From NCBI GenBank assembly GCA_951406725.2, contig OX597821.1:104470001-104534000 (forward strand): a stretch of 64,000 bases of DNA, given 5' to 3'. Under the pieces are notes generated by a model. The model did no database searches, was not told where the DNA came from, and saw only the letters and a list, made by a program, of their open reading frames with translations. Each line of letters opens with the position of its first letter. The stretch's first letter is position 1. The translations under genes were made by a program, and so were the position numbers. The stretch is from Octopus vulgaris (Eukaryota). Below are positions 1-58,287 of this stretch, in pieces.

Positions 1-2335
1 CTGTATGCCAGACTTGTTTGGAGACGTCTTGGCAGCGGTATACTGCAACTGGCAGCAAAACGGGAGCATACCCGGTTTTGTGAGTCGAGGAGACGTAACG
101 CTGCTGCAGAAAGATCCAGAACTGAAAATTTTAACAAAGGTGTTAGCCAAGAGGTTGGTGCTTGTCATCGAGAAACTGATCGACAACGCACAAACGTGCG
201 CCGTGCTGGACCGGAGCATCCATGACAACCTCCATCTGATGCGCTACATCATAGACAGAGTAGTTAAGGAACTTGGCATGGGTGGGGCCCTGATCAACTT
301 GGATCAATCGAAAGCCTTCGATAGGGTAGACCATCGATACTTGGAGGCAGTCCTGAGAGCGGCTGGTTTCGGTCCCGTCTTCCGCGGCTGGATAGCTGCC
401 TTGTACAGAGGCATCCGTTCGGTAATTCGCGTGAATGGACATCTATCGAGAACTTTCGACATTGCACGTTCGGTCCGTCAGGGATGCCCCCTCTCGTCGC
501 TTCTATACGTATTGACTCTTGAGCCACTACTGCGGAAGCTGGCGACTCTGAGGGGCATCCCGCGAGAATTGGGATGCGGGACGAGCGTGTCTGCATACGC
601 GGACGACGTCACCGTCATAGTGTCAAGCTACGAGCACATCGAGCTGGTCGGCGAGACACTGAAAGACTACGAAGCGGTGACAGGAGCAAAAATCAACCGG
701 GAAAAGTCAGTGGGCTTGCGGCTCGGCACCTGGAGAAGCAAGCCCATGCCGTCCACCAGTATCTCCGTCGTGGGATGCTTGACAGACGGCCCGGTTGAGT
801 TGCTCGGGGTCTGGTTCGGTCCGGACCACTAAATGACGAAGAACTGGAACGAGATAACGAGAAGGGTGGTCACTCTCGCCCGGCAATGGGCCGAGAGGAA
901 GCTGTCCCTAGAAGGTCGGGCGGAGGTGGCGAACACGTACATCGCGTCAATCATCTACTACCACCTGACCGTCGTACCTTGTCCCGAAGCTACCATCACC
1001 AAACTAGAACTCATTCTCTTTCGCTTCTTGTGGAAAGGATGCGTCCCGATGCTCAGGCGATCTATTTGCTGTCAACACCCGTTAAAAGGAGGGCTGGGCA
1101 TGCCATGGTTGATGATGCGCAAACACGCGCTGAGACTGCGACATCTCCGGCTTTATGTAGGACGGTGAACAGGTGTAGTCACCGTTTCTGAGGCACGCGT
1201 TCCCGCAGCTCGTCTCCATGACCGAACTGCAGTCGTTGATCAAAAAGAGGCCGAGGAAGGGCGAATGGCACCGCGAGTGTTGCATTGCTTTCAAGCAACT
1301 CTGCCGTCCTGGGTCGACCTTGAGTAACTTCAACACAACCAAAGCATTCTATAGGGGATTAGTGGAGGGGAGGTACGACGACGATATAGGGGCAAACCTG
1401 GGCATCGACTGGAATACTTGACCCGCCCGTTTGAAACGACTTTCGGGCCGGGACCTATGGAAAACTTTCAGAGATCCCTGGCCTGGCAGTGCTACCGAGA
1501 AGCGCTACCCGTTCGGGATAAGCTCTATAGGCATGGCTCGAGAAACGCGGGGCCGAACTGCCCGTACTGCGGGCAGAGCGACGAAACCGCTCTGCACGCA
1601 CTAGTGCAGTGTCCAACAATCTCCGACCTGTGGGCTTATGTCGAACGACTGCTGTCACGTTTGGGACGTGTCGGTTTATCAGCCGAGTCTATCGTTAATA
1701 TCGTCACGCCTCCTTCCTTCAAACGGGAAGGAAGAGCTATTTTTATTATACTTGTGGCTATGGCGAAAGAATGTATCTGGTGGACGCGCCTGAAAGGATT
1801 AGAGACAAACACTTTCCTCTCTGGTCAATATCTCATCAACTTCTTCAGGTATCACTTGAAGAGGAAAGTGAGAGTAGAGAGGCAAGTTTTGTCTAGTGAA
1901 TGTTTTTAAAAAAGATGGGTGAATGTAGCAAGGATGGCACGTATGAATGACGAAGCCACTTTGACTATGATTCTATGAACCGTAAAAATTAATACAGAGA
2001 GTTGCTTATTTGCAAAAAAAAAAAGAAATATATCATGTGACTCATTGTCCAAGGTTACCGTGGTCTTTTCCGTAGGCTTTTCTTTCCACGGGTAAACCTC
2101 ACCTGTCCTCCCCTTTGCACTTTATATTGACATTTCTGTGATAACGATCCCTATTGATCAATTCCCGCCTCTTAAAAGAAAAAGTACCCCCCCCCCTTTT
2201 TTTGTCCTCTTTCTTTCCTTTTACGATCCCTTTTGATCGAAAACCAAACCGCCTTTTTTTTTACCCCCAAAAGAAAAGCTCTACCTTGTAATTTGTCCTG
2301 TCTGTGTGCAGCCCTGTGTGGCTAATTAAGAAACA
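1..2335 (+). mobile_element. Tx1/L1-clade non-LTR retrotransposon, 3' part (RT, C-terminal CCHC finger, 3' UTR), disrupted
   Basis: ORF pieces 5-832 (DQSKAFDRVDH, VRQGCPLS, YADDV), 833-1168 (KGGLGMP), 1218-1421 and 1418-1909 (CPYCGQSDETALHALVQC zinc knuckle). Stops, frameshifts and a missing RPISLLN-type segment indicate a dead copy. The tail ends ...GGCTAATTAAGAAACA just before a (TATC)n tract. Confidence 0.9.
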
Positions 2336-2694
2336 TATCTATCTATTTATCTATCTATCTATCCAACCTTCTACCTGTCCGTCCGTCTGCCTGTCTGTCT
2401 GTCTACCTGCTTGTCTATCTATCTATGTATTTATCTCTCTATTTACCTATCTATCCAACCATCTGTCCGTTCGGCCGTCTGTCTGTCTATCTGTCTGTCT
2501 GTCTCTCTCTGTCTCTATCTATCCACCCGTCCGTCCGTCCGTCTGCTGCCTGTCTGTCTGTCTATCTATCTATCTGTCTATCTATCTTTCTATATATCTG
2601 TCTGTCTGTCTGTCTTTCGCTCTCTCTATATACCTATAACTTTATGTGCCTCTCTGACTGTCTGTCTGTCAATCTATCTCTCTGCCTGTCTATG

Positions 2695-2726
<32 letters not shown>

Positions 2727-3004
2727 TGTATGTATGCATGTATGTATATATGTATGCACGTATGTATGTATTATGAACGTACGTATCTGTCTATATCTAT
2801 CTATATATATCTATCTATATCTATCTATATCTATATCTATATCTATGTCTATCTATCTCTCTATCTATCCATCTCTCACTCCCCTCTCTCTCCCAATCTA
2901 TCTATCTACCTACCTATCTCTCTATCTATCCAGCTCTCACTCCCCCTCTTTCTCCCAATCTATCTATCTACCTACCTATCTATTTATCTACCTACCTATC
3001 TATT

Positions 3005-3035
<31 letters not shown>

Positions 3036-3043
3036 CTATCTAC

Positions 3044-3077
<34 letters not shown>

Positions 3078-3078
3078 C
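2336..3078. repeat. Compound tetranucleotide microsatellite (TATC/TCTG/TCCG/TATG/TACC)
   Basis: Directly visible; source of the YLSIYLSI-type spurious ORFs. Confidence 0.95.
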
Positions 3079-3479
3079 TAAGTTAATTAATATGTAAACC
3101 CTAAATATATATATTTGTTAATATATCTGAATATCAAGACGCCTTTAAACTTTAAGATATTAATACAATGAAGTAATCTTTTGTGGCATAAATTTGACTA
3201 TTTATAAATTGGCTGAAACGAACATCCTGATCAACATAATTGGAGATAAGAAATCACACACAAAGATTGAAGCAAAACCAAAATTAGCCAATTCAGAAAT
3301 GTTTCATTTTCTTTTTGTACCACAGGAAACGTAAATTTAATTAATTTCAATACAATGGGGAAACATTTTATCTTGAGATAAATTGGACCAATTATATAAT
3401 GTTTGTCTTAAACACAGAAACAGGTGTAGACTTTCTATTGTTATTAAATACATGCAGACACAAACACACACGACCGCAC

Positions 3480-3562
<83 letters not shown>

Positions 3563-3705
3563 TATATATGCCTATAGACGCATGTACAATAGCATGTACA
3601 ATCATATATGTATTTAATATAAATTCTTAAGCGTGTTTCTCTATGGTCATATTTGCATCTGTGTTTAAGTGTATATGAGTTTTCAGTGTATGTGCGTTTG
3701 TGTTC

Positions 3706-3746
<41 letters not shown>

Positions 3747-3811
3747 TGTGCGTGTGTTTGTGTGTGTATGTGTGAGTGAGTGTGTGTGTGTATGAGTGTG
3801 TGTGTGTAACA

Positions 3812-3993
3812 TGTTTTAAATATCTCAGCGAGTGATATATAGTAACATTACCGATAGCCAGCTGGAAAATATATTTTACAGCCGTTTAAACAGCAATAAC
3901 ATCCTCCTTTAGAGGACCGATACATTCTTTTGGCATATAAACTTTACTATTCGGTACTGTTAGTGTAAATATCTCGCTGAGACATTTAAAACA
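3812..3993. mobile_element. MITE-like foldback with ~45-bp imperfect inverted termini
   Basis: TGTTTTAAATATCTCAGCGAG...ACCGATAG at 3812 is complementary to CTATTCGGT...CTCGCTGAGACATTTAAAACA ending at 3993; embedded in (TG)n. Confidence 0.5.
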
Positions 3994-4158
3994 ATACGTG
4001 TGTGTGTGTACAGGTATTTAATTCATCTCCATGATCTCAACTTCTCATTGTGCACTCATATCCCAAGCTATACTATTTTGCAATGTAATTCCTTTAACTA
4101 CGAAATTGTCATCCCATAATTCTACAATATATGTCGTAACTATATAACATGATGGTTC

Positions 4159-4430
4159 CTAAATACAGTCGTGTTTTGGCGATAAAATTATTTTATCTAA
4201 TGGTGAAGGGGGCTTGGCTTGTCGTCTTAGATTTCTTATTAAAAGCAGACATAAACTACAAAACAGCGAATCATTAAACTCACCATGACTGTTGTTGTGA
4301 ATCGATTTACGTATGTTGTTTTCAATATTGTCGATCATACAGCGTCCGAGATCTTTTGAATACAATTTTAGTAGCTTCGTCGTCTTTCTTAGTTTAGGTA
4401 ATTTCAACGAAGTACCTATCAATGTTATAG
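4159..4430 (-). pseudogene. Probable Penelope-like GIY-YIG C-terminal remnant
   Basis: ORF 4159-4422 has GTSL...CSLCL...LDK, resembling the PLE endonuclease C-terminus (STxL...CxLCLxEK...LNK). Heavily decayed. Confidence 0.35.
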
Positions 4431-4445
4431 AATACCACTCACATG

Positions 4446-4536
<91 letters not shown>

Positions 4537-4726
4537 TAAGTAATTAAGGGTTTAGCAACGAATTGCCTCACCAACACACCGAATTTAGAAATAGCAGTCA
4601 AAGAGATATAGCTATTCCTTCTACTAAAAGGGGGATCTCAGTAAAACACAGCACTTAAAAGGCAAACACAGACAGGTAAGAAAGAAAGAATGAAATGACG
4701 GCAATCCATCATGCAATTTTAAGTTA

Positions 4727-4818
4727 CCTACGGACGTACGTTTCGAGATCAAGTTTTAGGATATCATAGGAATTAGAAAATTCTACTTTACCCAGACTTC
4801 TTCTCTCATCGGCGCAGG
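4727..4818 (-). ncRNA. Type I hammerhead ribozyme motif in a short PLE-like cassette (~4535-4900)
   Basis: Minus strand: stem I CCTGCG, core CCGATGA, stem II GAGA..(long loop)..TCTC, GAAA, palindromic stem III CGTACG, TC, stem I' CGTAGG. Confidence 0.75.
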
Positions 4819-4922
4819 ATACTACAATTGTGAATAATTGTATATTAAATTTTGAGATACTAGAATGCGTCATCTCAACTCAGTGTCAGAGCGAGCCAAA
4901 GCATGACCAGTACCACGAAATT

Positions 4923-4976
<54 letters not shown>

Positions 4977-5110
4977 TGCACGTGGCTATGAGGGAATGGA
5001 TATGAATTCTACTTTGCAGCATATGTCGGCGAGTCTCGATGGATATAAGCTAAGCGAAAACACAGCTCGCTTACATACTCGTAGCCACTAGCATTTATAT
5101 GGCTGGGTAT

Positions 5111-5183
5111 ACCGGTGCTGATGAAGGCAAAAGGGTAATTTTTTACTATTCCCTTAAATCCGAAACAAAATCATGTATGCGGT
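5111..5183 (+). ncRNA. Type I hammerhead ribozyme motif (partly decayed) in a PLE-like cassette (~4975-5325)
   Basis: ACCGGTG-CTGATGA-AGG..AAGGG/CCCTT..CC-GAAA-CA(AAATCA)TG-TA-TGCGGT; stem I pairs only with wobbles and a bulge. Confidence 0.6.
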
Positions 5184-5329
5184 TAACCAAAGTTTGTAAT
5201 TCATGTTCTTTCTTCTACTAGCCTATGTGTAGTGTGTTTTTCTCTGATAATTCATAGTGTCTTTTGACGTCTATTTTTCAGTGCGTGGTGAGGCGCAAGT
5301 CAATCCTTTGTTATAATTATGTATATAAT

Positions 5330-5368
<39 letters not shown>

Positions 5369-6209
5369 ATATTTATTCCTAAAGATTGGTTTAAATTTAC
5401 AAGTTTTTTGCATTCAAAATTTCGAAAGACATAATATACAAATATTTCGAAAACAAATATATTTGTGAATGCCATTTGAAAACATTACCACACCTGTAGG
5501 TTACTAATGCTTTCATAGATCCAGGTATTAGGAATTGAAATTGATTTGGAGTATGAAAGTTGACATTCTTAAATAGGAAATAATGAGCGTATACTTATTC
5601 AGGCTTCAGTAATTCTTTCAAACAATGATATATCTGAAAAAATTCCTAAGGAGTGGTTCACTCCCAATGGTTATCCTGCACGCCAGACACCAATTCGGAA
5701 TATCTGAGGGCCCCTGCTATTACTAGAAAGTCATTGAACCTACACTTGTTTCATCCATTCTTTTGAGAGGTTTTGCTTTTAGTCCTGTAGGGATTATAGC
5801 AATCCTCTTCATCAGGCAACTCTGGTAGGGGCGCCAGTTTAGACGCCGATGACCCGACCCTGCAAATGGTTGAACTGAGTTCCATGCTAGCAGTAGCACC
5901 CATGTGAGGCATCCCAATTGACCAGACACAAAGGTTTAACGAGATTTGAATTAAGAACACAAGGAATAAATATCACGGTTAACTCAATGATTTATCAGCA
6001 ATTATTTGCTTTACAAAAAGTTGATGACAATGACGTTTATGTGGTGTAGCCTGGATGGAATTTTCTACGCATGAATAAACACGTGATCATGTTACTTAAC
6101 TCCTACTGCAAAAGCGATACATGATTGACATAATCGACCCTGTAACATTGCTCTAAATGTTACCCATTCGCGTTTCCTAATATGTATCACCTGGTGTACC
6201 ATATATATA

Positions 6210-6773
6210 TTGGGTTGTCCGAAAAGTTCGTGCCGTTATATTGTAGCTTAAATTTCGACTTATTTTTGAACATGGTTGAGTCCATAAACTAGGATATGAC
6301 TAGACCTCCGTTTAGAGTACTGTTTAAGATATCTTTTCGTGGAAGAAGGTTATATGTTCCTATAACCTGTGTTAATGTTGTAACCCTTTAAAATGCTAGA
6401 TAAGAAAATTCATCTTCAGCACTTGATACTGGAAACCAGACAAAAATTGCTGCAGCTCGGCTGGGATATGTTACCCCACCCTCTATATTCACCAGATATT
6501 GCTCCTTCGGATTTCTTCTTATTCAGGTCTCTGCAGAATAGTCTTACTGGTAAAAAGTTCAATTCCTTGAATGACGTAAACATGACCTTGATGAATTCTT
6601 TGCCATGAAACCACCTCAATTCTGGGAAGAGGGTATTTTCAAGTTAAAGGAAAGATGGAGAAGCATTGTGCAACAAAATGGTTCATATTTGGTTGATTAA
6701 AAATGTAATGGCAAGTATTTATTGACCTTTTTCTTTCCTTTAAAAATCGGCACGAACTTTCCGGACAACACAA
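6210..6773 (+). mobile_element. Internally deleted mariner element (non-autonomous)
   Basis: TIRs TTGGGTTGTCCGAAAAGTTCGTGCCG / CGGCACGAACTTTCCGGACAACACAA, each flanked by TA. ORF 6393-6608 contains GWDMLPHPLYSPDIAPSDFFLF, the mariner YSPDLAPSD motif. Confidence 0.92.
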
Positions 6774-6792
6774 TATTTATACATATATAGTC

Positions 6793-6945
6793 AAGTTAAG
6801 TTAAGTTAAGTTAATTTTTTGGCTCAAAAAGCTAAAAGCAAGACCATGTAGGGGGACAATTATTTATGTACAGGGAGGGTGTTCATACAAAGAGTTCAGG
6901 CCATTTCTGGTCAAGAGAGACTTTGAACCGAGCGGTCGTCGGCAT
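6793..6945 (-). mobile_element. CR1/L2-type LINE 3' end with (TTAAC)n tail
   Basis: Minus strand encodes ...FKVSLDQKWPELFV*, a CR1-like ORF2 terminus, followed by a short UTR and tandem TTAAC. Confidence 0.55.
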
Positions 6946-9292
6946 ATATGTTACCCATTGCTATAAACGCCTTCAATAATGGACCGATAGAACATTTTAT
7001 CTACCGCAGTTGGATGAAAGTCAGCGTTGATATTTGAAGTCAGAACGTGCCTGCAGAAATATTGGAATGTATTTTATCAAAAGTTCTAACGATTTATTTT
7101 CCATTTCGGAATATGAACATCTTAGTTTCCCAAACCGCGAATTAAATACGAGAGCTTGATTATTGTTCGTCCAGTCGCATAACATTGTTCTTGACGCAAT
7201 ACAGGGAAACAAAAATGTCAACGGTTGCCATGATACGTTATGCTGTCTCTAATAACAAGGCAGCCAAATATTTATGGCTTGGGCGAAAAACAGTGATTCG
7301 AGTATTTGAGATTTTTTTCGGTAGCACTCCACAAAGTGGGACAATTTTCAGATTATTAATAGCGATATGAACAAATATAAACGGAAAGTAGTTTCTTCAA
7401 CAGAAACAAAATTTGTTTGCAGTCTATTATCAACTCACATACAATACTTTCTCAGAATGTATTTCGAAACTCATTATAAATTCCCCTTTGCTATATATGT
7501 ATGTTGTTTTGGTAAATATTGATTATAATATTTTTTTCGTTTAATAGCATCTTCTTGAAAAAGGCAAAACAAAAGAATGGGTGTAAGTATATTTGAAGAC
7601 CTGTGATGAAATTCCGAAAACAACGCTTGTACATTATTTCCTTAAAATACACATAATTTCTTTAAAAATGTATATAATTTCCTAAAACCCATAACGGAGG
7701 TGGATTTTTCTGAGGAGATGAAAATATATAAGCAAGGTTATTATCAAACATTAACAGGAATGTTTCGTGTTTATGTCATTTATACTTTGGCTAAAATCAA
7801 CTAAGTTTTTGATGAATTATATTTCCAATATCGCCCGTTACTTCACTTACAAATAAACATCTGAAAGAAACCCATCTTCTAGAGAGCGTAAACCACTCCA
7901 AATACGAACGTGATTAAATAGAATATATTGAAAAACAGTCACAGGGAATATATTTGAAATAAAACAATCTACACAATAGAATGTAGTATCATAATTGGTT
8001 AGCATACGAAATAGAAAAGAAAGTTAGCACATATAGGTATATTGCTGGAAGCATGCTTCTGGATTTTAAAAAGAAAGAAACGAATAATTCATATCTTCTG
8101 TTTTTCTAACATCTATGTTATACACAGGCAAAAAAGAGCAGGATAAAATATACTGCAACGAATGCAATAAGTTTGTTTGAATAGTAATGTTATTAATGTT
8201 AAAGCAAAGAAAAACATGTAAACTAAATATCAAATATATATTTTATATATCTAATACAGAGATCAATGCTTATATTGTTGAGCTGAAGACATGTACAGGC
8301 ACACACAAACGTATTCCTATGCTTATAAAACGAATTTAATAGTTATGTTTATTACTGCGTATATTCCTTTCTATGAAGGGCTCTTAAAACGTATAAAAAA
8401 GAGGGGAAAGATATTTTCTTCGGATTCTAAAACACTTTTTTCGTAAGATTGAATCAACCACAACAGTGAAACTTCTACCATAATGATTTGAACGCATGCG
8501 TAACGCATAAATAAAATCTCACGAGCTGTCGAGTAGTACTTTTAATATGTTTCTTCCAATTTTCATAGCTTCTTACAAGAAAATAAAATTTCATTGTTTT
8601 CATGGAAATGTGCTTAACTTTTATATATATTCATAATTTCTTTGAAGTGTAATAAAACCTTAATGATTTTAAAGGTAACATTATAGAAATAAACATCAGA
8701 TCCTACCATATTTTCCTACTGCAAATATAATCAATATTTTCCTATCGTAATAACGCAATAAAAAAGAAGCTTTGCATTGATAAAGATGCGGCGAAGAATA
8801 CATATTCATCGAAAACATTATAAGTATGTACAAGGTCGGCAGAGATACAATAATAAAATCATGGATAATTTCAGCGGATATTCTGCAATTTATACACATA
8901 ACAATATGATACAAATACATGTATATGTGTGTGTGTGTGTGTGTATGTGTGTGTGTGTGTTTGTGTGTGTTTATACATGTATGTATATACGTGGTTGTAT
9001 CTAAAGGATCCCGGACTAGCTATGTTTAACAAACACATAACTACTTTATTCTGTGCGACATCCGTAAGGAATTTTGTCAGTGGACAGTTCGCGGTCTGAA
9101 AGCGACGAAAACATTTTGACAAATTAAATTTAAATGCTGAAGTGTATCTAATGGTGTTTGTGTTTTTCTTAAATGGCTTATAAACACCTTCCACACTGCA
9201 ATTATTTTCCTTCCAGCACACGATCTCAGATCAAGTCACTTCCTATGCAAGTACATCTCTGCAATATCTACTTTACCTAAGTTTTAATATAA

Positions 9293-14490: not shown

Positions 14491-14964
14491 TCTATTAAAA
14501 TATCCTTTTTGAACTGAGGCATGCGGACACAGACACAACGTGTACTCTGCCTATTCATGCTAGCCACGGCATCGTAGTCTCTACTGCAGCTGCCTATGTC
14601 ATGTCTTACATACGTTACAGTGTTCACAGGGCACTGTGTAGCAGTCTTTATGACGGCGTTCTGATAAGCGATGCGAATCATCATGATACAAGAAACTCGT
14701 TTCCAGTATATATATACATTTTGAATTTCGGATACGGAAACTGTACAATAATACGTCATACACAAACATGCACACACACGGACGCACACACACATACTCA
14801 CACAAGCACGCGCACACATACACATATCTGTATTCTTTGTTGTCTGTCACGTTGTCATGCAATACCGCCTAACAACGGATATCGGTTTGCTTACGTCTGG
14901 TTAACTTAATGGCAAATGGTATCCATAGAATATCTACCAGTCTTAATAACAATTACTAGAGGCA

Positions 14965-15358
14965 AGGCGGCGAGCTGGCAGAAACGTTAGCACGCCGTAC
15001 GAAATGCTTGTGGGTACTCCGTCTGCCTTTACGTTCTGAGTTCAAATACTGCCGAGGTCGACTTTGCCTTTCATCCTTTCGGGGTCGATAAATTAAGTAC
15101 CAGTTACGTACTGGGGTCGATATAAACGACTTAATCCGTCTGTCTGTCCTTGTTTGTCTCCTCTGGGTTTAGCGCCTTGTGGTTAGTAAAGAAATAGGTA
15201 CTTCGTCTGCCTTTACGTTCTGAGTTCAAATACCGCCGAGGTCGAATTTGCCTTTCATCCTTTCGAGGTTCGATAAATTAAGTACCAGTTGTGTACCGGG
15301 TTAGATCTTATCGATTGTCCCCCTCCTCCAAAATTTCGTGCCTAGAGTAGAAAAGAAT
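14965..15358 (+). mobile_element. tRNA-derived MetaSINE, dimeric (tail A followed by a partial copy with tail B)
   Basis: A box GAGCTGGCAGAAACG, B box GAGTTCAAAT, Meta domain GCCTTTCATCCTTTCGGGGTCGATAAATTAAGTACCAG present twice. Confidence 0.85.
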
Positions 15359-16668: not shown

Positions 16669-18515
16669 ATGTAGCAAGTGCCCACTCCGTTCGAAGTTTA
16701 AATCTATATTTCTTTATTTCCCACAGGGGGCTAATCATAAAGGAGACAAACAAGGACAGACAGAGGGATTAAGTCGATTATATCTACCCCAGTGCGTAAT
16801 TGGTACTTATGTAGCAAGTGCCCACTCCATTCGAAGTTTAAATCTATATTTCTTTATTTCCCACAGGGGGCCAATCATAATGGGCATAAACAAGGACAGA
16901 CAGAGGGATTAAGTCGATTATATCTACCCCAGTGCGTAATTGGTACTTATGTAGCAAGTGCCCACTCCATTCGAAGTTTAAATCTATATTTCTTTATTTC
17001 CCACAGGGGCTAATCATAATGGAGACAAACAAGGACAGACAGAGGGATTAAGTCGATTATATCTACCCCAGTGCGTAATTGGTACTTATGTAGCAAGTGC
17101 CCACTCAATTCGAAGTTTAAATCTATATTTCTTTATTTCCCACAGGGGCCAATCATAATGGGCATAAACAAGGACAGACAGAGGGATTAAGTCGATTATA
17201 TCTACCCCAGTGCGTAATTGGTACTTATGTAGCAAGTGCCCACTCCATTCGAAGTTTAAATCTATATTTCTTTATTTCCCACAGGGGGCTAATCATAAAG
17301 GAGACAAACAAGGACAGACAGAGGGATTAAGTCGATTATATCTACCCCAGTGCGTAATTGGTACTTATGTAGCAAGTGCCCACTCCATTCGAAGTTTAAA
17401 TCTATATTTCTTTATTTCCCACAGGGGGCCAATCATAATGGTTACAAACAAGGACAGGACAGAGGGATTAAGTCGATTATATCTACCCCAGTGCGTAATT
17501 GGTACTTATGTAGCAAGTGCCCACTCAATTCGAAGTTTAAATCTATATTTCTTTATTTCCCACAGGGGCCAATCATAATGGGCACAAACAAGGACAGACA
17601 GAGGGATTAAGTCGATTATATCTACCCCAGTGCGTAATTGGTACTTATGTAGCAAGTGCCCACTCCATTCGAAGTTTAAATCTATATTTCTTTATTTCCC
17701 ACAGGGGGCCAATCATAATGGGCATAAACAAGGACAGACAGAGGGATTAAGTCGATTATATCTACCCCAGTGCGTAATTGGTACTTATGTAGCAAGTGCC
17801 CACTCCATTCGAAGTTTAAATCTATATTTCTTTATTTCCCACAGGGGCTAATCATAATGGGCACAAACAAGGACAGACAGAGGGATTAAGTCGATTATAT
17901 CTACCCCAGTGCGTAATTGGTACTTATGTAGCAAGTGCCCACTCCATTCGAAGTTTAAATCTATATTTCTTTATTTCCCACAGGGGGCAATCATAACAAA
18001 ACAAGGACAGACAGAGGGATTAAGTCGATTATATCTACCCCAGTGCGTAATTGGTACTTATGTAGCAAGTGCCCACTCCATTCGAAGTTTAAATCTATAT
18101 TTCTTTATTTCCCACAGGGGCTAATCATAAAGGAGACAAACAAGGACAGACAGAGGGATTAAGTCGATTATATCTACCCCAGTGCGTAACTGGTACTTAT
18201 GTAGCAAGTGCCCACTCCATTCGAAGTTTAAATCTATATTTCTTTATTTCCCACAGGGGGCCAATCATAATGGGCATAAACAAGGACAGACAGAGGGATT
18301 AAGTCGATTATATCTACCCCAGTGCGTAATTGGTACTTATGTAGCAAGTGCCCACTCCATTCGAAGTTTAAATCTATATTTCTTTATTTCCCACACAGGG
18401 CAATCATAAAGGAGACAAACAAGGACAGACAGAGGGATTAAGTCGATTATATCTACCCCAGTGCGTAATTGGTACTTATGTAGCAAGTGCCCACCGCCTT
18501 TCAAAGTTTAAATCT
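16669..18515. repeat. Tandem array, ~134-141-bp unit x13.3, built from a MetaSINE 3' tail plus ~36 bp of flank
   Basis: GTAGCAAGTGCCCAC occurs 14 times (16671, 16811, 16951, 17090 ... 18341, 18480). About 100 bp of each unit is the reverse complement of SINE tail A (compare 22376-22477). Confidence 0.97.
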
Positions 18516-20944: not shown

Positions 20945-22375
20945 GGGAAACAATTTTCCACTAAGTTACTGGGGTTTCATTAAAGGAACCCAAATGCATG
21001 AGCGGCAAAGTTAGCAATCTAGGGTCTTACAAAGCACAAACTGTCGATAAAATATCGTAGGTGGGCTGTTTCTCATGCTCAAAAGGCTCTGCCAACACAC
21101 TAAATTTCATTTAAGAATATATCCTTTTAATATTAGAGGAATATTAGATGTATGTATCAGAATATCCTTAAAATTAAGGAGTTCGATTGGAAATCGACAT
21201 TCGGTCTCTTGCAACTGTGCTATTGTGCACGTCTCCTGTAGCATAGCTCTGCCTTAGCCATTAGCCTGTGAGTGAAATTGTTTTGATGGGATTCTTTCGA
21301 AGAGACATATTGCACTTTTTTCTTCTTGCCGAGCCGTTACCCCTGCTTTACAAACATTATCTTAGTTGCCTTAGAGAAGTCCATAACTCAAACCAGATCC
21401 ATGCTTTGAAAATATATTCCTACCAATCTCGTAAGTCCTGTAAGAAGTTCAGGTCTACTGCAATTGTTTTTTTTTCTATTATGATTAAACCACATACAAG
21501 TTGAAATGTATGAATATAAATCACGCAAATAAACTTTTCGTTTCGGCATTACTTAAAACGGAAGATGAAATTTTATATGAAGAACTTTTCATTTTAGTTC
21601 GTCCAAACGTTTGACAGATTCAAATGAATGTCAGCTTGAAGACAGTAAAAAAAAATAAATAAATGATGAAAACGAGAATGTATTAATATTTACGTTGCTT
21701 CAGAAATAGCAGTGCTTTCTAAGAATACAGATATAATCTTTTCTTACCCTTTCTTTATATTCGACATATTAAATCATTTCTTCTATTTAATATAACCATA
21801 GCAACTCACTGACAGAATGGTTAAAAGCAAGAAAGTATATGAAGACATTCATAATATTTCATCTTCCTTTTTCTGATGACAAACTCATTCAATTTCAAAA
21901 CCATTTAATCCTTTAATCGATGTTGAAATCGTCTTCCAGACATGGCAATTCATAAATTTGCTATCATATACCATTTCGTTTCGTAACAAATGATTTAACC
22001 TTGTTACTCAAAACAAGACCATTAATGTAGAAGATCGTATCAAATTGTTATCATAAAGTATCTTATCTTAACTTATATCCTATATACTGTTGCAAAAGCA
22101 TTAACATTCTAATCTGTCTGCGGCTATATTTAGTGTCTGAGAATAAAATCGAATTTCTAAATTTAATAATTCAATATACTCTGCGACATAGCTTGTGTGT
22201 TCTCATACGAATGGAAAAAAAATTAAAATTACTTTGTTATATATGAATATTTTTCCTTTTGATCAATATAATATATTTATACGATAATGCATTACATTTA
22301 AGAGGGCTACGTTTCAGCTTCAAATCCTTGTGTGCGACCGCAACTTGCTACGGTAGGGTCACATGTGGGAATATA

Positions 22376-22607
22376 TATTTCTTTACTACCCACAAGGGGC
22401 TAAACACAGAGGGGACAAACAAGGACAGACAAAAGGATTAAGTGGATTACATCGGCCCCAGTGCGTAACTGGTACTTAATTTATCGACCCCGAAAGGATG
22501 AAAGCAAAGTCGACCTCGGCGGAATTTGAACTCGGAACGTAACGGCAGGTGAATTACGGCTACGCATTTCGCCCTTGGTGCTAACGTTTCTGCCAGCTCG
22601 CCGCCTT
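22376..22607 (-). mobile_element. MetaSINE monomer (tail A) with target-site duplication
   Basis: Full head, Meta domain and tail. Flanked by CACATGTGG(G/A)AATATA at 22360 and 22611. Confidence 0.9.
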
Positions 22608-23806
22608 CACCACATGTGGAAATATAGGCAATATTCTATCTGACATATACACATGCACACGGAATTTTATCCCTCTGTGTATTTGTTTGTTTGTGTGTGG
22701 GTGAGTGTCTATGCGTGTGTGAATGTCTGTGTGTGTATGTGTGTGCATGTGGCTGTGTATGTGTGCATTTGTGTCTGTGTGATTAAGTTGGTATGAGAGG
22801 TCTAATCACAAGTTCGTGTAATCAGATAAAATTTACTTGTGTATTCATGCCAAACCTCAACGCTTCACCTCAGTGTGTACTAAATGAGAAACCACCCAGT
22901 GACCGAGTAGTATGCTTAAACCGGAAAGAAGATTAAGACCATATTATAAGAAGAAGATTATTTCATCTATTGGCCGTCTGCACAGTCTACGCATAGCAGA
23001 TTCTTGTTTCAACGCCTCAGTTGAGCCGAGACTAAATAAATTACATTTTTACCTAACATACCATAGATGTAAAACTGCTGTAAGATTAAACTCAAATTGA
23101 AGTACATGTACCATGAACTTCACAAGAAGATAGCTGCGGATACACCTAATCAGCTACGAATCTATACTGAATGAAAGCAATGGAAATTTGCGTCAGATGA
23201 AAATTCGTATTAAGCTGTCGTTTTGCTCTAACCTCAATGATACTTCATGAATGTTTTATTTGAATCGTTTCATATAAATTCCAAGAATACCAGGTCTATG
23301 GGTAAGGCTACGGGCTGATGAATATGAATATATGACTATTAGTGATGTAATGTGCATCAGAGGAATGTGCGGCATATTAACTACAGAATCAGTAGGTTTT
23401 CCTTTATAATTTCATTACGCGAAAACTGAAAATGTGCTGTATGTATATTCAATGTGTCGACGGCGCCCCTCAGATAATTAATAAGCCGTAATATAATAAG
23501 ATTTAATAAAATATGTTACATTATCTTATTGATCCATAGGCAGTGATTCTATGGAATTTCGAAATCTACCTCGTACGGCTTTTATCAACACCTTGAGGGA
23601 ATATAGGAGTATATATCTTACGAGTATAAAGACGTAACAGCAAACTAATAAATATAAGTAAGTCAGTGTATCTTTCTTCGATTTCCCGAGCCTACAGTTA
23701 TATAGAGACACAGATAGCATTACGATTTACATATAGCTGTATTATTTACATGTGTGTGCCTGTGTGTGTTTGTGTATAAGTGCGTGTTTGCGTGTTTGTG
23801 TGTGTA

Positions 23807-38784: not shown

Positions 38785-38829
38785 CACACGGTCTCGTGTT
38801 TCTAGGTATTGACCCGTCATCAGCGTGTG
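38785..38829 (-). ncRNA. Type I HHR motif (U16.1->A substitution) in a repeat at ~38620-38860
   Basis: CACACG-CTGATGA-CGGGT(CAAT)ACCTA-GAAA-CACGAG-AC-CGTGTG, with a perfect 6-bp stem I. Confidence 0.7.
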
Positions 38830-39039
38830 ACAATCACCGGTTTCTCTTTATTACGATTATTACAATCAAACATAGAAATGACGGCACAAGACACTACAAA
38901 CATTTAAAAGGAGTTATTTACCGAGTTTGTAAAAAGATTTTATGAAAATATATTAAAAATTGACTTATATAATTTTTTAAAAAAAATTTATATTATTTAA
39001 TTTTACATTTTATTAAGTTCCAACGGCTACGCCTTTTCT

Positions 39040-39735
39040 TCTTACCATGGATGAGTTAAGTAGTAACACTCACTCCCAGCTTCCTTACCACATCTTTCAA
39101 TCTTTCCTCATATACTCTTTCCGACAGGTGCTTTCTCTCCAGTGCTATCTTGCTTTTCAGGTGGTACCTAAAGTAATATAGCATTCCAGGGCTGGAGATG
39201 AAGGCCCCTGACTTCAAACCTAGCATTCTAGTTCCCCAATGCACACTCTTTCATAACTGCGACTGTACATAGAAAACAAGCCTCACCTTCCTTAGATAGT
39301 CTGGTGGGTGGTACATTCATAATCACAGACTCAACCGATAGCTGTACTCTTCCCAGTTGTGACAACACGTGTTCTACGTAAAGTGTCATCTCGGAAAGCA
39401 GGGCACACTGTACAAGAGCGTGCATGATAGTTTTCTTATCCTGCCCGCCTCATGGACATTCGGGTGGCACTGAAATTCCGAGCCTGGATAATTTGTCATA
39501 AACAGGTAACGCATTCCTGAAACACTTCCAGGTCAGGGATCTTTGGTAATTATCCAAATACCCCGTCCTGAAAGTGTTCTGGAACGGGTTGGCTAGCTGG
39601 TCCCCATCGAGTCCCAGCGTCGCTCCTAGAAAGTCGTCACTTTTAAACTCTACCAACCGTTTGTACAATGCAGAGGTGATATTTCCGCTGCCGGCGTTAA
39701 CCGCCTTGTGGATTAGCACAAATGCCTGCTGATGT
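39040..39735 (-). mobile_element. Second, more diverged Tx1/L1-clade LINE 3' fragment
   Basis: ORFs 39450-39743, 39228-39425 and 39056-39244 are collinear homologues of 1218-1909 (NYQRSLTWKCFRNALPVYDKL; HALVQC; YFRYHLK). Confidence 0.88.
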
Positions 39736-40721
39736 TCCAGCATGGCCGCAGTAAAATGAATGAAGTAAATAAAAAAGATAAAAAGTTCACTTTAGATGCT
39801 GTATGTTATGAAATTATAATACAATGGTTCAATTTAATTTCATTGCAACGTATGCCTTATTCCAATAGAATGGCCCCAAACTCCCTATATTACAGTAGTT
39901 CCATGTTAGTCGTTCCAATCTGATTTTGAATTTATTTCAAGTGAGTTACTTGTAATTTCTGCCAGTATCAAAATATTCTTCACGAATATTTACTCTTAAT
40001 TTGCGCTTTACGTGACTTTTCGCTTCTAGGGTTTGCGTCAATATGCTGTCATGTGCTTTTCGAAGCGCATTCGTATGTATATATATGTATATAACCAGTT
40101 GCCATGCACGATCGCTAAATCCGCAAGTTGCTTTTTTATCATTCCCTCTCTGTTTATTTTCTTTTATTCCTCTCTGTTTAAAGAGCGTAAAAGACTTCCT
40201 CCGTTCCGAGCGTCAGACTAATACACCTGATTGTTATACATACACCCGTTCTCGAGTTTTGGTTTTCTGTAAATTTCAACAAATACATATATGTATATAA
40301 TACAGTGTACATTTAAACACATAAGGAATTCACTCATGGAATTCAACACGCTAGAAAGAACAGCTATATTCTATAAACACAAAAATTAGGGATAAATTTC
40401 GACAGGAACTAAATGAAAAAATAAAAACATTTTACCATCTAATTTCCTGGACAAATTGGTTTCTGATTTTAGTTTAGCAAGTAAATAATCTTTACCCGCA
40501 AGGTGAAATCGTTTTCAACAGGTACACCTTAGATTAAATATATAAACACGATGCGATCAACTATGTGCCTCTTGTTTCTACATCCTAATTTTTTCAAAAT
40601 CTACGGCGCAGATGCAGTCCTTCGCCTTCAATAAAAAAATGCCAACTTTTATAAACCGAAAATTATCCAAAAACTTACAATATTTAATCATATCAAAAGG
40701 AAATGGAAATTAATAGAAATG

Positions 40722-43279: not shown

Positions 43280-43692
43280 AAGCAGCGAGTTGGCACAATC
43301 GTTAACACGCCCGGGGCGAAATACTTGGTGGTATGTTGTCTGTCTTTAGGTTCTGAGTTCAAATGCCACCGAGGTCGACTTTGCCTTTTATCTTTTCGGG
43401 TTCGATAAATTAAGTACCAGTTGCAAACTGGGGTCGGACTAATCCACTGGCCCTCTCCCCCAAAATTTTAGGGCGTGTGCCTAGAGTGGAAAAGAATCGT
43501 TAGCACGCCGGGCGAAATCCTTAGTGGTATTTTGTCTGTCTTTATGTTCTGCGTTCAAATTCCACCGAGATGGACGTTGCCCTTCTTCCTTTCGGGTTCG
43601 ATAAATTAAGTATCAGTTGCGTACTTGGGTTAAACTTATCGACTAGCACCTCCCCACCAAAACTCAGGCATTGTGCCTAGAGTAGAAAAGGA
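43280..43692 (+). mobile_element. Two tandem MetaSINE copies (tail B)
   Basis: Head, Meta domain and GTGCCTAGAGT(A/G)GAAAAG tail occur twice, joined near 43497. Confidence 0.8.
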
Positions 43693-43748
43693 ATAGAAAG
43701 AGTACTAGGTACACAAAGGATGTTACTAGAAAATAAGAGGGGGAGGAG

Positions 43749-48078: not shown

Positions 48079-48574
48079 AATATGTGTGTATGTGTGTGTA
48101 AGCGCATATATATGTGTGTGTGTATGCATACTCACACATACACATATATTTTTCTGTGTGTATGTGTGCATATGTGAGTATTAAAAATCATTTTCAAAAC
48201 ACTTTTAGCCTATAATACCGGTGATTATAACAATTAAAATGCTTATAGAAACTTGGGTAATACGGAAAATAGTTTTGGGAACGACACTATGTGATATTTT
48301 CTCTCGAAGCACTTTCAAATTGCATTATATGTTAAAAGCACTTAGCTTATCTCATAATGCTGGTGGAGGATTTGCCACGGTGTTTCGACCTATTTTGCTC
48401 TTCTCTTCCGGGTAGCAAATACACTGCCTGTTATGAACCAAGCCTACAAATGCCTATTTCGACATAGAAGTCAGTTAACACAGCATTTATACAAAACTTT
48501 TATACATTTAATTCGTGCAGTTGAAACAGGCTTGTATTTAAAACTAATCGCGTGAACAATGGGCATTTCCACGA

Positions 48575-50210
48575 GAAGCAAAAGATCTGAAATTTCGGAG
48601 GATGGGGGCAAGGCGATTTCAACGCCCCCCAGTACTTCACTTGTGCATATTTTATCTAACCGAAAGGATGGACAACTTAGTCGACAGCAGCAGATTTTCA
48701 CTCAGTGTGTAAAACCGAAAGAAATACTGCTAAACATTTTGTCCAGAGTGCTGACCATTCTCCCAGCTCTGCCACCCTAATGGTGTGTATAATATTGGTT
48801 TCAAAATTTAGTACAAAACCAGAAATTTGGGAGCAGGGTGCTACTAAATTACTTTGACTTCAGTGTTCAACTAGTACTCAATATATTGACTCACGAAAAG
48901 ATGAAAGTCGACCTCGGCGGAAGTTGAACCCAGAACGTGTAAGCAGAGGAAATGCGGTTAAGCATTTTACCTGTTGTGCTAAGAATTCTGCCAGATCACC
49001 ACCTTAATGGCGTGTATAATATTAGTTTACGTTTTCGTTCAACGCCAGCAAATTCAGAGTTAGGTGTAAGTCGATTATAACGACACCAGTATACAACTGG
49101 TACCTATTCTATCGACTCTGAAATGAAGAAAGGCAAATCGCCATGGACCTAACTTGAAATCAGAACGTAAACATGGACGAACTGCCGTTAATGATTTTTC
49201 CCGGCGTGCCAACTAGTTTTTCTGCTTTTGTCACAAGGCCTGAAATTTAGAGAAGTGGACAGTCGATTTCATTAACCCCAGTGTTTAACTGGTACTTAAT
49301 TTATGAACCCCGAAAGCATGAAAGGCAAAGAAGTTCTCGGCAGAATTTAAGCTCAAAACGTAAAGGCGGACGAAATGCCGCTAAACATTTTGTTCGACGT
49401 GCTAACGACTCTGCCTTCAATGTTGTGTATAATATTTTCCGAATCTCGGAACAAGGGCGGCATTTTCGGGGTCTGAGACTAGTGCGTTACATCGAGCCAA
49501 GTGCTCAGCTAGTACTAATTCTATCCCTGCCCCCGAAATAATGAAAGCCAAAGATGATCTATAAAATATCAGTTCCTAACCTAAAGATGGACAAAATGCC
49601 ACTAAGCATTTTGGCCAACGCACTCATAGTTCTGCCAGCTCAACACGTTTAATGTCGTGTATAACATTAATACTCTCTATATGAACGTGATATAAGACTA
49701 GCTGAGATTCTTTCTCTCAGCGACTATTCTCGAAAAGGAAAGTTTACAGAGGCAATGGTCTTCTAAACATCTCCCTGTTCAGTAACTTAAAGAAGGTCCA
49801 AACATGCATAATAATCCTTTCTATTATAGGCACAAGAACTGAAATTTGGGAAGGGGGGATTAGTCGATTACATCGACCCCCATTGTTTCACTGGCACATA
49901 ATTTATCAAACGCGAAAGAATGAAATGCAAAGTCATCCTCGGCGGGATTTGAACTCAGATCGTAGCGGCAGACGAAATACCTATTTATTTACCACCCACA
50001 GGGGGCTACACACATAGGGGACAAACAAGGACAGACAAACGGATTAAGTCGATTATATCGACCCCAGTGCGTAACCGGTACTTACTCTATCGACCCCGAA
50101 AGGATGAAAGGCAAAGTCGACCTCGGCGGAATTTGAACTCAGAACGTAACGGCAGACAAAATACGGCTACGCATTTCGCCCGGCGTGCTAATGTTTCTGC
50201 CAGCGCGCCC
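48575..50210 (-). mobile_element. Cluster of 6-7 same-orientation MetaSINE copies of different ages, ending in a dimer (49813-50210)
   Basis: Repeated CAGT..AACTGGTACT..ATCGAC..GAAAGGATGAAAGGCAAAGTCGACCTCGGCGG..TCTGCCAG motifs at roughly 200-250-bp spacing. Confidence 0.75.
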
Positions 50211-51394: not shown

Positions 51395-51946
51395 AATGTG
51401 TGTCGGTGCGTGTGTGCGTCTATGTTTTTAAATATACATATATGTGTATGTCCATGTATGTATATCTATATATATATAAACAAAATAATGAAATTATTGT
51501 ATACAGTGCTCAGGTGCACCACATCTGAGCATTGTATACTTATGTGTGTATATGCATATATATATATGTGTGTTTATGTATATATACGTGAATGTGTGTT
51601 TGTGTGTGTGTGTGTGTGTATTCATTCCAATGTACTCATGTGTCCCGGGTACAAGTGTAAACTGCATCTGGTAGTGGGGTTCAATAAGTCCGAGCTTTCT
51701 AGACTTTCGAGCAATATGGAAGCCCGTCTACGCTACTACTATTCTCGGGTCTACTTCGGACCAGATCATTAATACCTGTCAGTGTACTGGCTGTGGGTTA
51801 ATTGGCACGTGAGCTACTACCAGTGAGGGGACCCTAGTTTTCCCTTTAAGAGCTGCATCTTATAACATAATACCATGATACACAGTCATAAACCTTTAAA
51901 TATATATAAAGATATACAGTAATGCTTCGATATACAAGTTAATTTG

Positions 51947-52333
51947 AAGGCGGCGAGCTGGCAATAACGTTAGCAGGCCGGGCGAAATGCTTAGCGGTAT
52001 TTCGTCTGCCACTACGTTCAGAGTTCAAACTACGCCGAGGTTGACTTTGCCTTTCGTCCTTTCCAGGTCAATAAATTAAGTACCAGTTACTCACTGGGGT
52101 CGATATAATCGACTTAATCCGTTTGTCTGTCCTTGTTTGTCCCTTCTGTGTTTAAGTAAAGAAATAGGTATTTCGTCTCTCTTTGCGTTCTGATTTCAAA
52201 TTCTGCCGAGTTCAGCTTTGTCTTTCATCCTTTCGGGGTCGATAAATTAAGTACCAGTAGTGTACTGAGATTGATCTAATCAACTGGCCACAGTCCCAAA
52301 AATTTCGCGCCTTGTGCCAAGAGTAGAAAAGAT
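51947..52333 (+). mobile_element. MetaSINE dimer (tail A followed by tail B)
   Basis: Same architecture and junction (AAAGAAATAGGTATTTCGTCT) as 14965-15358. Confidence 0.85.
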
Positions 52334-58193: not shown

Positions 58194-58286
<93 letters not shown>

Positions 58287-58287
58287 A

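What the first reader, a model, noticed from the sequence alone, without database searches (positions are those of the whole stretch)
2284..2335. MetaSINE 3' tail matches the 3' end of the Tx1/L1-clade LINE (candidate SINE-LINE partner pair)
Seen: the LINE end CCTTG-TAA-TTTGTCC-TG-TCTGTGT-GC-AGCCC-TGTGTGG-CTAATTAAGAAACA aligns with SINE tail A (reverse of 22376-22424) CCTTG-TTTGTCC-CC-TCTGTGT-TT-AGCCC-CTTGTGG-GTAGTAAAGAAATA. By hand I count 39 matches in 49 columns plus one 3-nt gap, and both end at the same point. Both can form a short stem around a TGT-containing loop. Known: SINEs borrow the 3' tails of stringent LINE partners (usually CR1, L2 or RTE), whereas animal L1-clade elements are mostly relaxed poly(A) types. 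Inference: a stringent, non-poly(A) Tx1-type LINE mobilises this SINE subfamily.
Basis: partly seen in the sequence, partly recalled or inferred. Interest (0 to 1): 0.7.

Follow-up and report, generated by a model that had tools for sequence, protein, structure and literature searches.

The report
SINE shares tail with L1-group LINE
The last ~50 bases of a multi-copy L1-group (likely Tx1) retrotransposon in what is likely an octopus genome match the 3' tail of a tRNA-like-headed SINE at 80%, so the SINE likely took its tail from this LINE lineage and likely borrows its copying enzyme, a pairing my literature searches found reported for L1-type elements only in plants and algae.

Summary
Observation confirmed: 2284-2335 aligns with SINE tail A at 39/49 plus a 3-nt gap; 0 of 3000 shuffles reach the score. 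Contigs from four runs (four organism labels) cover the tail as deeply as the rest of the LINE, two diverged contigs bridge UTR and tail, and four SINE-diagnostic transversions stay under 8%. The tail is part of the LINE family, not a local SINE insertion.

Corrections: the SINE body is a UCON3 domain (38/47 by hand to UCON3_CM), not Meta. The hairpin is no more stable than shuffles and shows no covariation. "Non-poly(A)" is unproven, because the terminus was not visible and resembles a poly(A) signal. Three of four tail-A SINEs carry the tail internally in composites ending in another tail. The 20% tail divergence points to a sister or ancestral family as donor.

Best reading: a SINE with an L1/Tx1-derived tail, likely mobilised through it (0.6). 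Known precedents are maize and Chlamydomonas L1 pairs and tail-less crocodilian SINEU/Tx1. New variant of a known kind; interest 0.5.

The parts
2..1978 (+). 3' part of ORF2 of a decayed L1-group (likely Tx1) LINE: RT domain, thumb, C-terminal CCHC knuckle; broken by stops and frameshifts; runs off the window's 5' end; stop TGA at 1976-1978
   Evidence: Pfam RVT_1 in 2-829, zf-RVT in 1355-1906; tblastn of relative P0001 covers 5-1975 in three pieces at 55-70%; stop position
1979..2335 (+). 3' UTR of the LINE (357 nt), with variable A, C and T runs
   Evidence: Covered by contigs of all four runs laid, with a dip at 2172-2197 that joints bridge (tables 2 and 5)
2284..2335 (+). Terminal segment shared with SINE tail A; part of the LINE family
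   Evidence: 39/49 plus 3-nt gap, 0/3000 shuffles; bridged to the upstream UTR by X1 pieces 7 and 8
2310..2323 (+). Possible 4-bp hairpin with 6-nt CUGUGU loop (predicted only, weak)
   Evidence: -3.7 kcal/mol in isolation; whole tail z 0.46; no compensatory change
2324..2335 (+). AATTAA plus A-rich end, like a decayed poly(A) signal; SINE copies have AATAAA or AGTAAA here
   Evidence: Sequence; function inferred
2336..3070 (+). (TATC/TGTC)n-type microsatellite directly after the LINE; flank or possible target, not tested
   Evidence: Sequence
22376..22610 (-). Monomeric SINE ending in tail A: tRNA-like head (A-box-like and B-box-like motifs), UCON3 body at 22470-22515, tail A; LINE-like part 22376-22424
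   Evidence: UCON3 by hand against Fig. S2 of PMC7245038
22360..22626 (-). 16-bp target site duplication (1 mismatch) flanking that SINE: 22611-22626 and 22360-22375
   Evidence: 3 of 600 random position pairs reach 16 bp with up to 2 mismatches
14964..15331 (+). Composite SINE: head, UCON3, tail A (15148-15196), then a second 5'-cut unit from 15197 ending in tail B; no clear TSD
49812..50209 (-). Composite SINE, same plan; tail A 49982-50030, second unit from 49981; 12-15 bp TSD around the whole composite
51945..52330 (+). Composite SINE, same plan; tail A lacks 14 nt including the hairpin; second unit from 52167; 16-bp TSD (2 mismatches) around the whole composite
16669..18515 (-). Tandem array of a 139-bp unit (13.3 copies) holding the SINE's 3' half with a tail-A variant
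38843..39749 (-). Second, distant L1-group ORF2 C-terminus (to about 39054) with a ~210-nt UTR ending AATAAAGAGAAA; its end weakly resembles the first LINE's tail but not tail A
   Evidence: tblastn 45% and 34% to P0001; shuffles

Best explanation
2284-2335 is part of the 3' end of a multi-copy L1-group (likely Tx1) LINE family and matches SINE tail A at 80%; the SINE likely captured this end from the same LINE lineage (likely a sister or ancestral family), and the LINE's ORF2 protein would then bind that tail on SINE RNA and copy it into the genome by target-primed reverse transcription. Shown: the homology, the segment's place in the LINE family, L1-group membership, and a 16-bp TSD around the one SINE that ends in tail A. 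Inferred: the direction of transfer (LINE to SINE, probably by template switching), recognition of the tail by ORF2 (stringent type), and any role of the small hairpin. Composite SINEs in which tail A is internal moved as whole units through tail B; their partner is not identified.
For: (1) 39/49 plus gap, 0/3000 shuffles, at the 3' end of both elements. (2), four runs from four studies and four organism labels: summed contig depth in bins 2276-2301 and 2302-2327 lies within or just outside the range of the ORF2 bins (X1 3.2M and 1.6M against 0.8-2.4M; X11 7191 and 3264 against 1468-9039; X4 407k and 193k against 215k-732k; X8 457k and 209k against 118k-530k). X11 is a 60-Mb run, too shallow to assemble one locus if the genome is gigabase-sized (inference). 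Two diverged X1 contigs bridge UTR and tail with at least 31 letters on both sides of 2284 (2190-2321, 11 other letters, 6 gaps; 2219-2326, 14 other letters, 2 gaps). The share of laid contigs running on unlike is 0 in all runs, and no place has many molecules ending. No G>T or C>G change class appears in any run and the single G>C is at 2251, so the SINE letters at 2300, 2308, 2316 and 2322 stay below 8%; no 3-nt gap row at the SINE's gap. (3) L1 group: best solved relative is human L1 ORF2p (174 bits) against R2 (88 bits or less) for P0001; full-length relatives carry PF03372 + PF00078 + PF13966. (4) Direction: tail A departs from tail B about 20 nt before the LINE-like part starts, those 20 nt partly repeat the same motif (14/17 columns), and the LINE UTR holds no SINE body. 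(5) Length and identity fall inside accepted pairs, 35-61 bp at 72-95% (PMC11481361).
Against: (1) Tail identity LINE to SINE is 73-80%, while SINE units are 87-90% alike and this LINE copy differs from the majority letter at 25 shown places over 1600-2266 (run X11); decay alone does not close that gap, so this family is probably not the direct donor. (2) No structural support: z 0.46 for both tails, consensus energy -1.9 kcal/mol, 0 pairs with a change on both sides in either register (RNAalifold's own 3-pair helix showed one such cell), and the stem is broken in 1 of 3 intact tail-A copies. (3) 3 of 4 tail-A SINEs carry the tail internally, one with the hairpin deleted. (4) 2328-2375 was skipped as a repeat, so the family's terminus and any poly(A) are unseen. 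(5) No single contig joins ORF2 to the tail; the link runs through overlapping pieces and joints across a 100-fold dip at 2172-2197, and only 32 of 39,364 pieces, 24 of 1,110 loose ends and 40 of 57 variant rows were shown; the two bridging pieces are both from X1. (6) A 16-bp TSD does not single out Tx1: RTE-driven SINEs make ~17 bp (PMC7245038), and tail-B composites here have 12-16 bp too.
Confidence: 0.6

Rival explanations
1. Relic tail. The SINE acquired the LINE's 3' end once by template switching, but this L1-group LINE is relaxed (it recognises an A-rich or poly(A) end), or the SINE now moves by another route, so the shared sequence records origin and is not a recognition signal.
For: No stable or covarying hairpin; the end looks like a poly(A) signal; tail A is internal in 3 of 4 copies; crocodilian SINEU is thought to use Tx1 with only a poly(A) tail (PMC4494074).
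Against: One tail-A monomer has a clean 16-bp TSD, so tail-A-ended RNA was retroposed. Such a match is the standard sign of partnership. Kojima 2020 states that non-mammalian L1 machineries are considered to recognise RNA structure besides poly(A) (PMC7245038).
Confidence: 0.2
2. Reverse transfer. A master copy of the LINE picked up a short 5'-cut SINE tail (or the end of another LINE clade) as its new 3' end and has carried it since; the SINE's real partner is a different LINE.
For: The SINE is far more abundant in the window than the LINE. The second L1-group element has no match to tail A (270-1458 of 2000 shuffles of its UTR as good).
Against: The LINE-like part starts close to the tail A / tail B module boundary and no SINE body lies in the LINE. 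The second L1-group element's UTR weakly resembles the first LINE's tail (3, 7 and 35 of 2000 shuffles under three scorings), a hint of LINE ancestry, though UTR against UTR is not significant (500-835 of 2000).
Confidence: 0.12
3. Local accident: a SINE-tail fragment inserted beside this one LINE copy.
For: No single shown contig spans ORF2 to tail.
Against: Depth like the rest of the LINE in four runs, two diverged bridging contigs, no SINE-type letters, no pile of ends at 2283 among the rows shown.
Confidence: 0.03
4. Chance or convergence of GT-rich, A-ended 3' termini.
For: Both segments are T/G-rich and the genome is full of simple repeats.
Against: 0 of 3000, 0 of 3000 and 0 of 5000 dinucleotide shuffles; the match sits at both 3' ends; tail B controls at chance.
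Confidence: 0.05

Closest known systems
Maize ZmSINE2 and ZmSINE3 with LINE1-1_ZM; Chlamydomonas SINEX-3_CR with L1-1_CR (Ohshima 2012, PMC3472496; Ohshima 2013, PMC3747384)
   Same: tRNA-type SINE sharing about 50 terminal nucleotides with an L1-clade LINE. [quoted passage not shown]
   Different: Those are plants and a green alga, and the maize case has a solid hairpin (-10.8 to -17.7 kcal/mol) with compensatory changes. Here the host is an animal, the LINE is likely Tx1, and the hairpin is weak with no covariation.
Crocodilian SINEU with Tx1-Mar (Kojima 2015, PMC4494074)
   Same: A Tx1 family proposed as the motor of an animal SINE.
   Different: That case rests on shared target preference; SINEU has snRNA heads and poly(A) tails, and no LINE sharing the SINEU-1 3' end was found. 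Here the evidence is a shared 3' sequence, and target preference is untested.
UCON3-domain SINEs (Kojima 2020, PMC7245038)
   Same: tRNA-like head followed by the UCON3 body (38/47 by hand to UCON3_CM), with exchangeable tails.
   Different: Listed from chordates, nematodes, cnidarians and xenacoelomorphs, no mollusc in Fig. S2; the hagfish tails named are RTE-like, CR1-like or of unknown origin, not L1/Tx1.
Bivalve HCD SINE-LINE pairs (Martelossi 2024, PMC11481361) and MetaSINEs (Nishihara 2016, PMC4824008)
   Same: Mollusc SINEs with a conserved body and swapped LINE-derived tails of 35-61 bp at 72-95%.
   Different: Partners are CR1-Zenon, CR1, L2 and Nimb/I; 'Tx1' does not occur in either main text. 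The body here is not Meta.
Stringent L2 elements ZfL2-1/ZfL2-2 (Hayashi 2014, PMC4176376)
   Same: Supplies the mechanism assumed here: a region between EN and RT binds a 3' stem-loop.
   Different: Shown by assay for L2 only; that region lies outside this window and nothing was assayed here.

Membership tests
L1 group of non-LTR retrotransposons (L1 + Tx1) | RT closer to L1 ORF2p than to other clades | tested here: met
   P0001 (69% to the window RT) scores 172-174 bits on human L1 ORF2p and 63-88 on R2. No CR1, L2, RTE or I protein was among the 10 hits, so those clades were not compared directly.
L1 group of non-LTR retrotransposons (L1 + Tx1) | APE endonuclease, RT and C-terminal CCHC knuckle in ORF2 | tested here: met
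   RVT_1 and zf-RVT in the window. The endonuclease is off the window; full-length relatives at about 50% carry PF03372 + PF00078 + PF13966.
Tx1 clade | RT phylogeny groups with Tx1/Keno/Kibi/Koshi and not with L1 | not testable with these tools
   No named Tx1 reference sequence was available; hits are unnamed except one Argonauta hypothetical protein. Indirect: the Octopus vulgaris annotation lists L1-Tx1 (80 families; 13 recently active).
Tx1 clade | Target preference (common, not universal) | tested here: inconclusive
   The copy abuts a (TATC)n tract, as Kibi and Koshi target microsatellites (PMC4494074), but flanks of other copies were hidden.
tRNA-derived SINE | tRNA-related head with A and B boxes | tested here: inconclusive
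   A-box-like and B-box-like motifs 64 nt apart in 2 of 4 copies, B-box-like alone in a third (motif patterns recalled). ARAGORN finds no tRNA and Rfam no family; no direct alignment to tRNAs was run.
tRNA-derived SINE | Short, dispersed, non-coding, TSD-flanked | tested here: met
   About 235-400 nt, at least nine dispersed units in 64 kb; TSDs of 12-16 bp for 3 of 6 elements searched.
MetaSINE | 66-bp Meta domain right after the tRNA head | tested here: not met
   By eye the body does not match BivaMeta-SINE1 or BivaMD-SINE1 in the paper's supplement; two window motifs gave 0 and 1 hits there. The Meta consensus figure itself could not be seen.
UCON3-domain SINE | ~50-bp UCON3 body between head and tail | tested here: met
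   Window 15056-15102 against UCON3_CM in Fig. S2 of PMC7245038: 38/47 ungapped, counted by hand.
Stringent SINE-LINE pair | Shared 3'-terminal sequence | tested here: met
   39/49, 0/3000 shuffles; segment in the LINE family.
Stringent SINE-LINE pair | Conserved stem-loop with compensatory changes | tested here: inconclusive
   A 4-bp stem can be drawn, but z is 0.46 and no pair changes on both sides in 7 sequences, only one of them a LINE. Too few sequences to exclude it; no support found.
Stringent SINE-LINE pair | Matching TSD/target signature and concurrent activity | tested here: inconclusive
   LINE 5' end is off the window, so no LINE TSD. Ages overlap only roughly (SINE units 87-90% alike; LINE copy about 4% from majority letters).
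Stringent SINE-LINE pair | Tail needed for retrotransposition or ORF2 binding | not testable with these tools
   Needs an assay.

The most novel reading that the evidence does not exclude
An animal Tx1 lineage is a stringent LINE whose ORF2 reads a minimal (C/U)UGU-loop hairpin plus A-rich end, and the same signal, rebuilt with a different stem in tail B (AGGC[.TTGT]GCCT-like), lets this lineage drive both tail types of the octopod UCON3 SINE expansion. That would be the first tail-based L1-group SINE-LINE pair in animals and a test case for stringent recognition being ancestral in the L1 group.
Probability: 0.25. Interest if true: 0.72.

Novelty: new variant of a known kind. Interest (0 to 1): 0.5.

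Why it matters
SINE tails normally come from the partner LINE, and L1-type elements are the standing exception: 3 of 58 pairs in the 2012 survey, none in animals (PMC3472496, PMC3747384), and a 2026 paper still words it as 'except for the L1 LINEs' (PMC13295347). An animal L1/Tx1 element with a SINE-shared tail makes Ohshima's proposal (stringent recognition ancestral, relaxed later) testable on the animal side, and offers a candidate motor for part of the octopus SINE load (11.6% of the O. vulgaris genome, PMC13282606). It also puts a UCON3-domain SINE in a mollusc. The surprise is moderate: non-mammalian L1-type elements are already expected to read RNA structure (PMC7245038), Tx1 is already proposed as a SINE motor (PMC4494074), and Repbase or Dfam entries, which I could not see, may already note this pair.

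Tried and rejected
No whole genome is held for this window, so no genome-wide consensus, TSD or target analysis was possible.

Searches for other loci with flanks found nothing: ORF2 C-terminal alignment A2 in metagenome, viral and prokaryote collections (139, 44 and 19 pattern hits, none confirmed); a 30-nt degenerate tail pattern in the same three collections (0 matches each). These collections are not expected to hold this animal, so the blanks say nothing.

Sequencing-run search: no RNA holder listed on record; expression was not examined.

Structure: single-strand folds of 8 tail pieces gave z from -2.15 to 1.09, with no common fold. RNAalifold on 7 tails gave 3 pairs at -1.9 kcal/mol. 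Both stem registers showed no covariation. An anchored stem search found a perfect 4-bp stem in the LINE, 2 of 3 tail-A ends and 2 of 11 tail-B ends, none in the second L1-group element; post hoc and weak.

Tail B does not match the LINE UTR nor the end of the R4/Dong-like fragment at 58.3-59.2 kb.

Identification with the described octopus SINEs OR1/OR2 could not be tested: the SINEBase supplement is not held and the 1994 paper was not read. They are cited as CORE-SINEs, whereas this body is UCON3.

A protein comparison of the two L1-group fragments failed on a stop codon; tblastn to P0001 served instead. The ESM Atlas and cluster look-up gave no clade name. The 29 'Tx1' hits in PMC4176376 are mutant names, not the clade.

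Earlier scan notes: five look-ups returned nothing on this genome or these sequences.

Full report
Observation. It is far above chance: the local score of the LINE's whole 3' UTR against the SINE is 40, and none of 3000 shuffles of the UTR, 3000 of the SINE or 5000 of the tail alone reach the observed scores. Two more tail-A copies match at 36/49 and 37/49; five tail-B units score at chance.

The LINE. Bases 2-1978 are the 3' part of a decayed ORF2 with RT and a CCHC knuckle; the stop is at 1976-1978 and the UTR is 357 nt. A close relative (P0001, 69%) scores 172-174 bits on human L1 ORF2p and at most 88 on R2, and full-length relatives carry an APE endonuclease, RT and zf-RVT. That places it in the L1 group. 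Tx1 is likely, because the O. vulgaris annotation lists L1-Tx1 families, but no tree with named references could be built. The host is likely an octopus: the best named homolog is from Argonauta hians (63%) and the window is microsatellite-rich; this is inference.

Is the segment part of the LINE? No genome was held, so I laid contigs of four public runs (four studies, four organism labels) on 1600-2375 at 85% likeness; 26,336, 1,890, 6,241 and 4,798 contigs were laid. Summed depth over 2276-2327 is of the same order as over ORF2 in all four, including the 60-Mb run X11. The tool warns that depth is no copy number; I use it only to show that the tail is neither missing nor in large excess. Two diverged X1 contigs bridge the upstream UTR and the tail (2190-2321 and 2219-2326). 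The share of contigs running on unlike the stretch is 0 in all runs, and no place has many molecules ending. The depth is not made of SINE tails: tail A differs from the LINE by G>C at 2300, G>T at 2308 and 2316, and C>G at 2322, yet no run lists any G>T or C>G place and the single G>C is at 2251. Limits: only 32 of 39,364 pieces, 24 of 1,110 loose ends and 40 of 57 variant rows were printed; no single contig joins ORF2 to the tail; depth dips about 100-fold at 2172-2197 in X1, where joints such as 2163-2205 and 2164-2271 bridge it; and 2328-2375 was skipped as a repeat, so the terminus and other copies' flanks are unseen. On balance the segment belongs to the LINE family.

The SINE. It has a tRNA-like head with A-box-like and B-box-like motifs (ARAGORN and Rfam find nothing). 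The body is not Meta: it does not resemble the bivalve MetaSINEs in the supplement of PMC4824008 by eye. It matches the UCON3 domain of PMC7245038: 15056-15102 against UCON3_CM is 38/47 ungapped, counted by hand. No mollusc is in that figure. The window holds one monomer ending in tail A with a 16-bp TSD, three composites in which tail A is followed at the same column by a second 5'-cut unit ending in tail B, several tail-B monomers, and a 139-bp tandem array with a tail-A variant. Two of the three composites have 12-16 bp TSDs around the whole element, so they moved as units ending in tail B.

Structure. A 4-bp stem with a loop ending UGU can be drawn in the LINE, in 2 of 3 tail-A ends and in 2 of 11 tail-B ends. 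LINE and tail A use registers shifted by one base. Folding is no better than shuffles (z 0.46 for both), and in neither register does a pair change on both sides across 7 sequences. The stem-loop claim has no support here, though the sample is small and decayed.

Mechanism. The best reading is that a UCON3 SINE captured the 3' end of an L1/Tx1 LINE, probably by template switching (the route proposed in PMC4824008), and was then copied by that lineage's ORF2, which in stringent L2 elements binds the 3' tail through the region between EN and RT (PMC4176376). The direction is favoured because the LINE-like part begins near the tail A / tail B boundary and no SINE body lies in the LINE. The donor is probably a sister or ancestral family: tails differ by 20-27%, SINE units from each other by 10-13%, and this LINE copy from the majority letter by about 4% (25 shown places over 1600-2266 in X11). 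'Non-poly(A)' is unproven; the end reads like a worn poly(A) signal (AATTAA here, AATAAA or AGTAAA in SINE copies). A second, distant L1-group fragment at 38843-39749 ends in AATAAAGAGAAA; its UTR resembles the first LINE's tail weakly (3, 7 and 35 of 2000 shuffles under three scorings) and tail A not at all. I put this reading at 0.6, a relic tail with relaxed recognition at 0.2, reverse transfer at 0.12, chance at 0.05 and a local insertion at 0.03.

Known and new. Ohshima's survey found 3 SINEs with L1 tails among 58 pairs, in maize and Chlamydomonas. Kojima proposed Tx1-Mar as the motor of crocodilian SINEU from target preference, with no shared tail. Bivalve partners are CR1-Zenon, CR1, L2 and Nimb/I. 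Ten full-text searches showed no report of an animal SINE with a Tx1 or L1 tail, nor of a partner for octopus SINEs. The library lacks most subscription papers, Repbase Reports, Dfam and the SINEBase tables, any of which may hold this pair.

What I saw of each paper. PMC4494074: parts 1-4 of 5. PMC3472496 and PMC13282606: part 1 of 3, plus a supplement search for the latter. PMC4824008: passages, section 10, supplement parts 1, 3 and 4; its figures were not visible. PMC7245038: passages, section 7, a supplement search and part 1 of supplement 1. PMC11481361: passages and section 13. PMC4176376: passages, abstract and discussion. PMC3747384: passages with parts of Table 1. PMC5786205, PMC4758252, PMC5753468, PMC8967140, PMC3531059, PMC5804259, PMC13295347: passages only. 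Ohshima and Okada 1994 on OR1/OR2: not read.

Verdict. A real shared 3' tail between a UCON3-domain SINE and a multi-copy L1-group (likely Tx1) LINE, a new variant of the familiar SINE-LINE tail pairing. Stringent recognition is plausible but untested. Interest 0.5.

Noticed in passing
window 14964-15331 (+), 49812-50209 (-), 51945-52330 (+): Composite SINE family: head + UCON3 + tail A, then a second unit that starts at the same column inside the head and ends in tail B; TSDs flank the whole composite in two of three.
   Followed up: partly
window 15056-15102 (+), 22470-22515 (-) and other SINE units: The SINE body is a UCON3 domain (38/47 by hand); Fig. S2 of PMC7245038 lists no mollusc.
   Followed up: partly
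window 38843-39749 (-): Second, distant L1-group ORF2 C-terminus with a short UTR ending in a poly(A)-signal-like motif; weak likeness to the first LINE's tail.
   Followed up: partly
window 38775-38845 (-): Directly after that element, a CTGATGA - short stem - GAAA motif like the minimal hammerhead ribozymes of Penelope-like elements (recalled motif, by eye; fold; no Rfam hit at gathering score).
   Followed up: no
window 16669-18515: Satellite of 13.3 copies of a 139-bp unit (with a 279-bp higher-order period) built from the SINE's 3' half and tail A plus about 30 unrelated bases.
   Followed up: partly
window 43448-43497, 43645-43705 (+), 48790-48850 (-) and other tail-B ends: Tail B holds a .TTGT loop like tail A with a different stem; perfect 4-bp pairing in only 2 of 11 ends. 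Donor of tail B unknown.
   Followed up: partly
window 43280-43700 (+) and 48560-49600 (-): Tail-B SINE units in head-to-tail runs of two and about five, more diverged than the tail-A copies.
   Followed up: no
window 58200-59230 (-): 3' fragment of a LINE that looks R4/Dong-like (CCHC plus a PD..D nuclease-type motif, recalled), ending in a long (TAA)n tract; no match to tail B.
   Followed up: partly
window 60121-60588 (-): RT-like fragment with a YVDD motif, Penelope-like by eye; no Pfam hit.
   Followed up: no
window 2263-2289 (+): The LINE UTR just before the shared segment has CCCCCAAAA...CCTTGT, which echoes tail B by eye; alignment scores are at chance level.
   Followed up: partly
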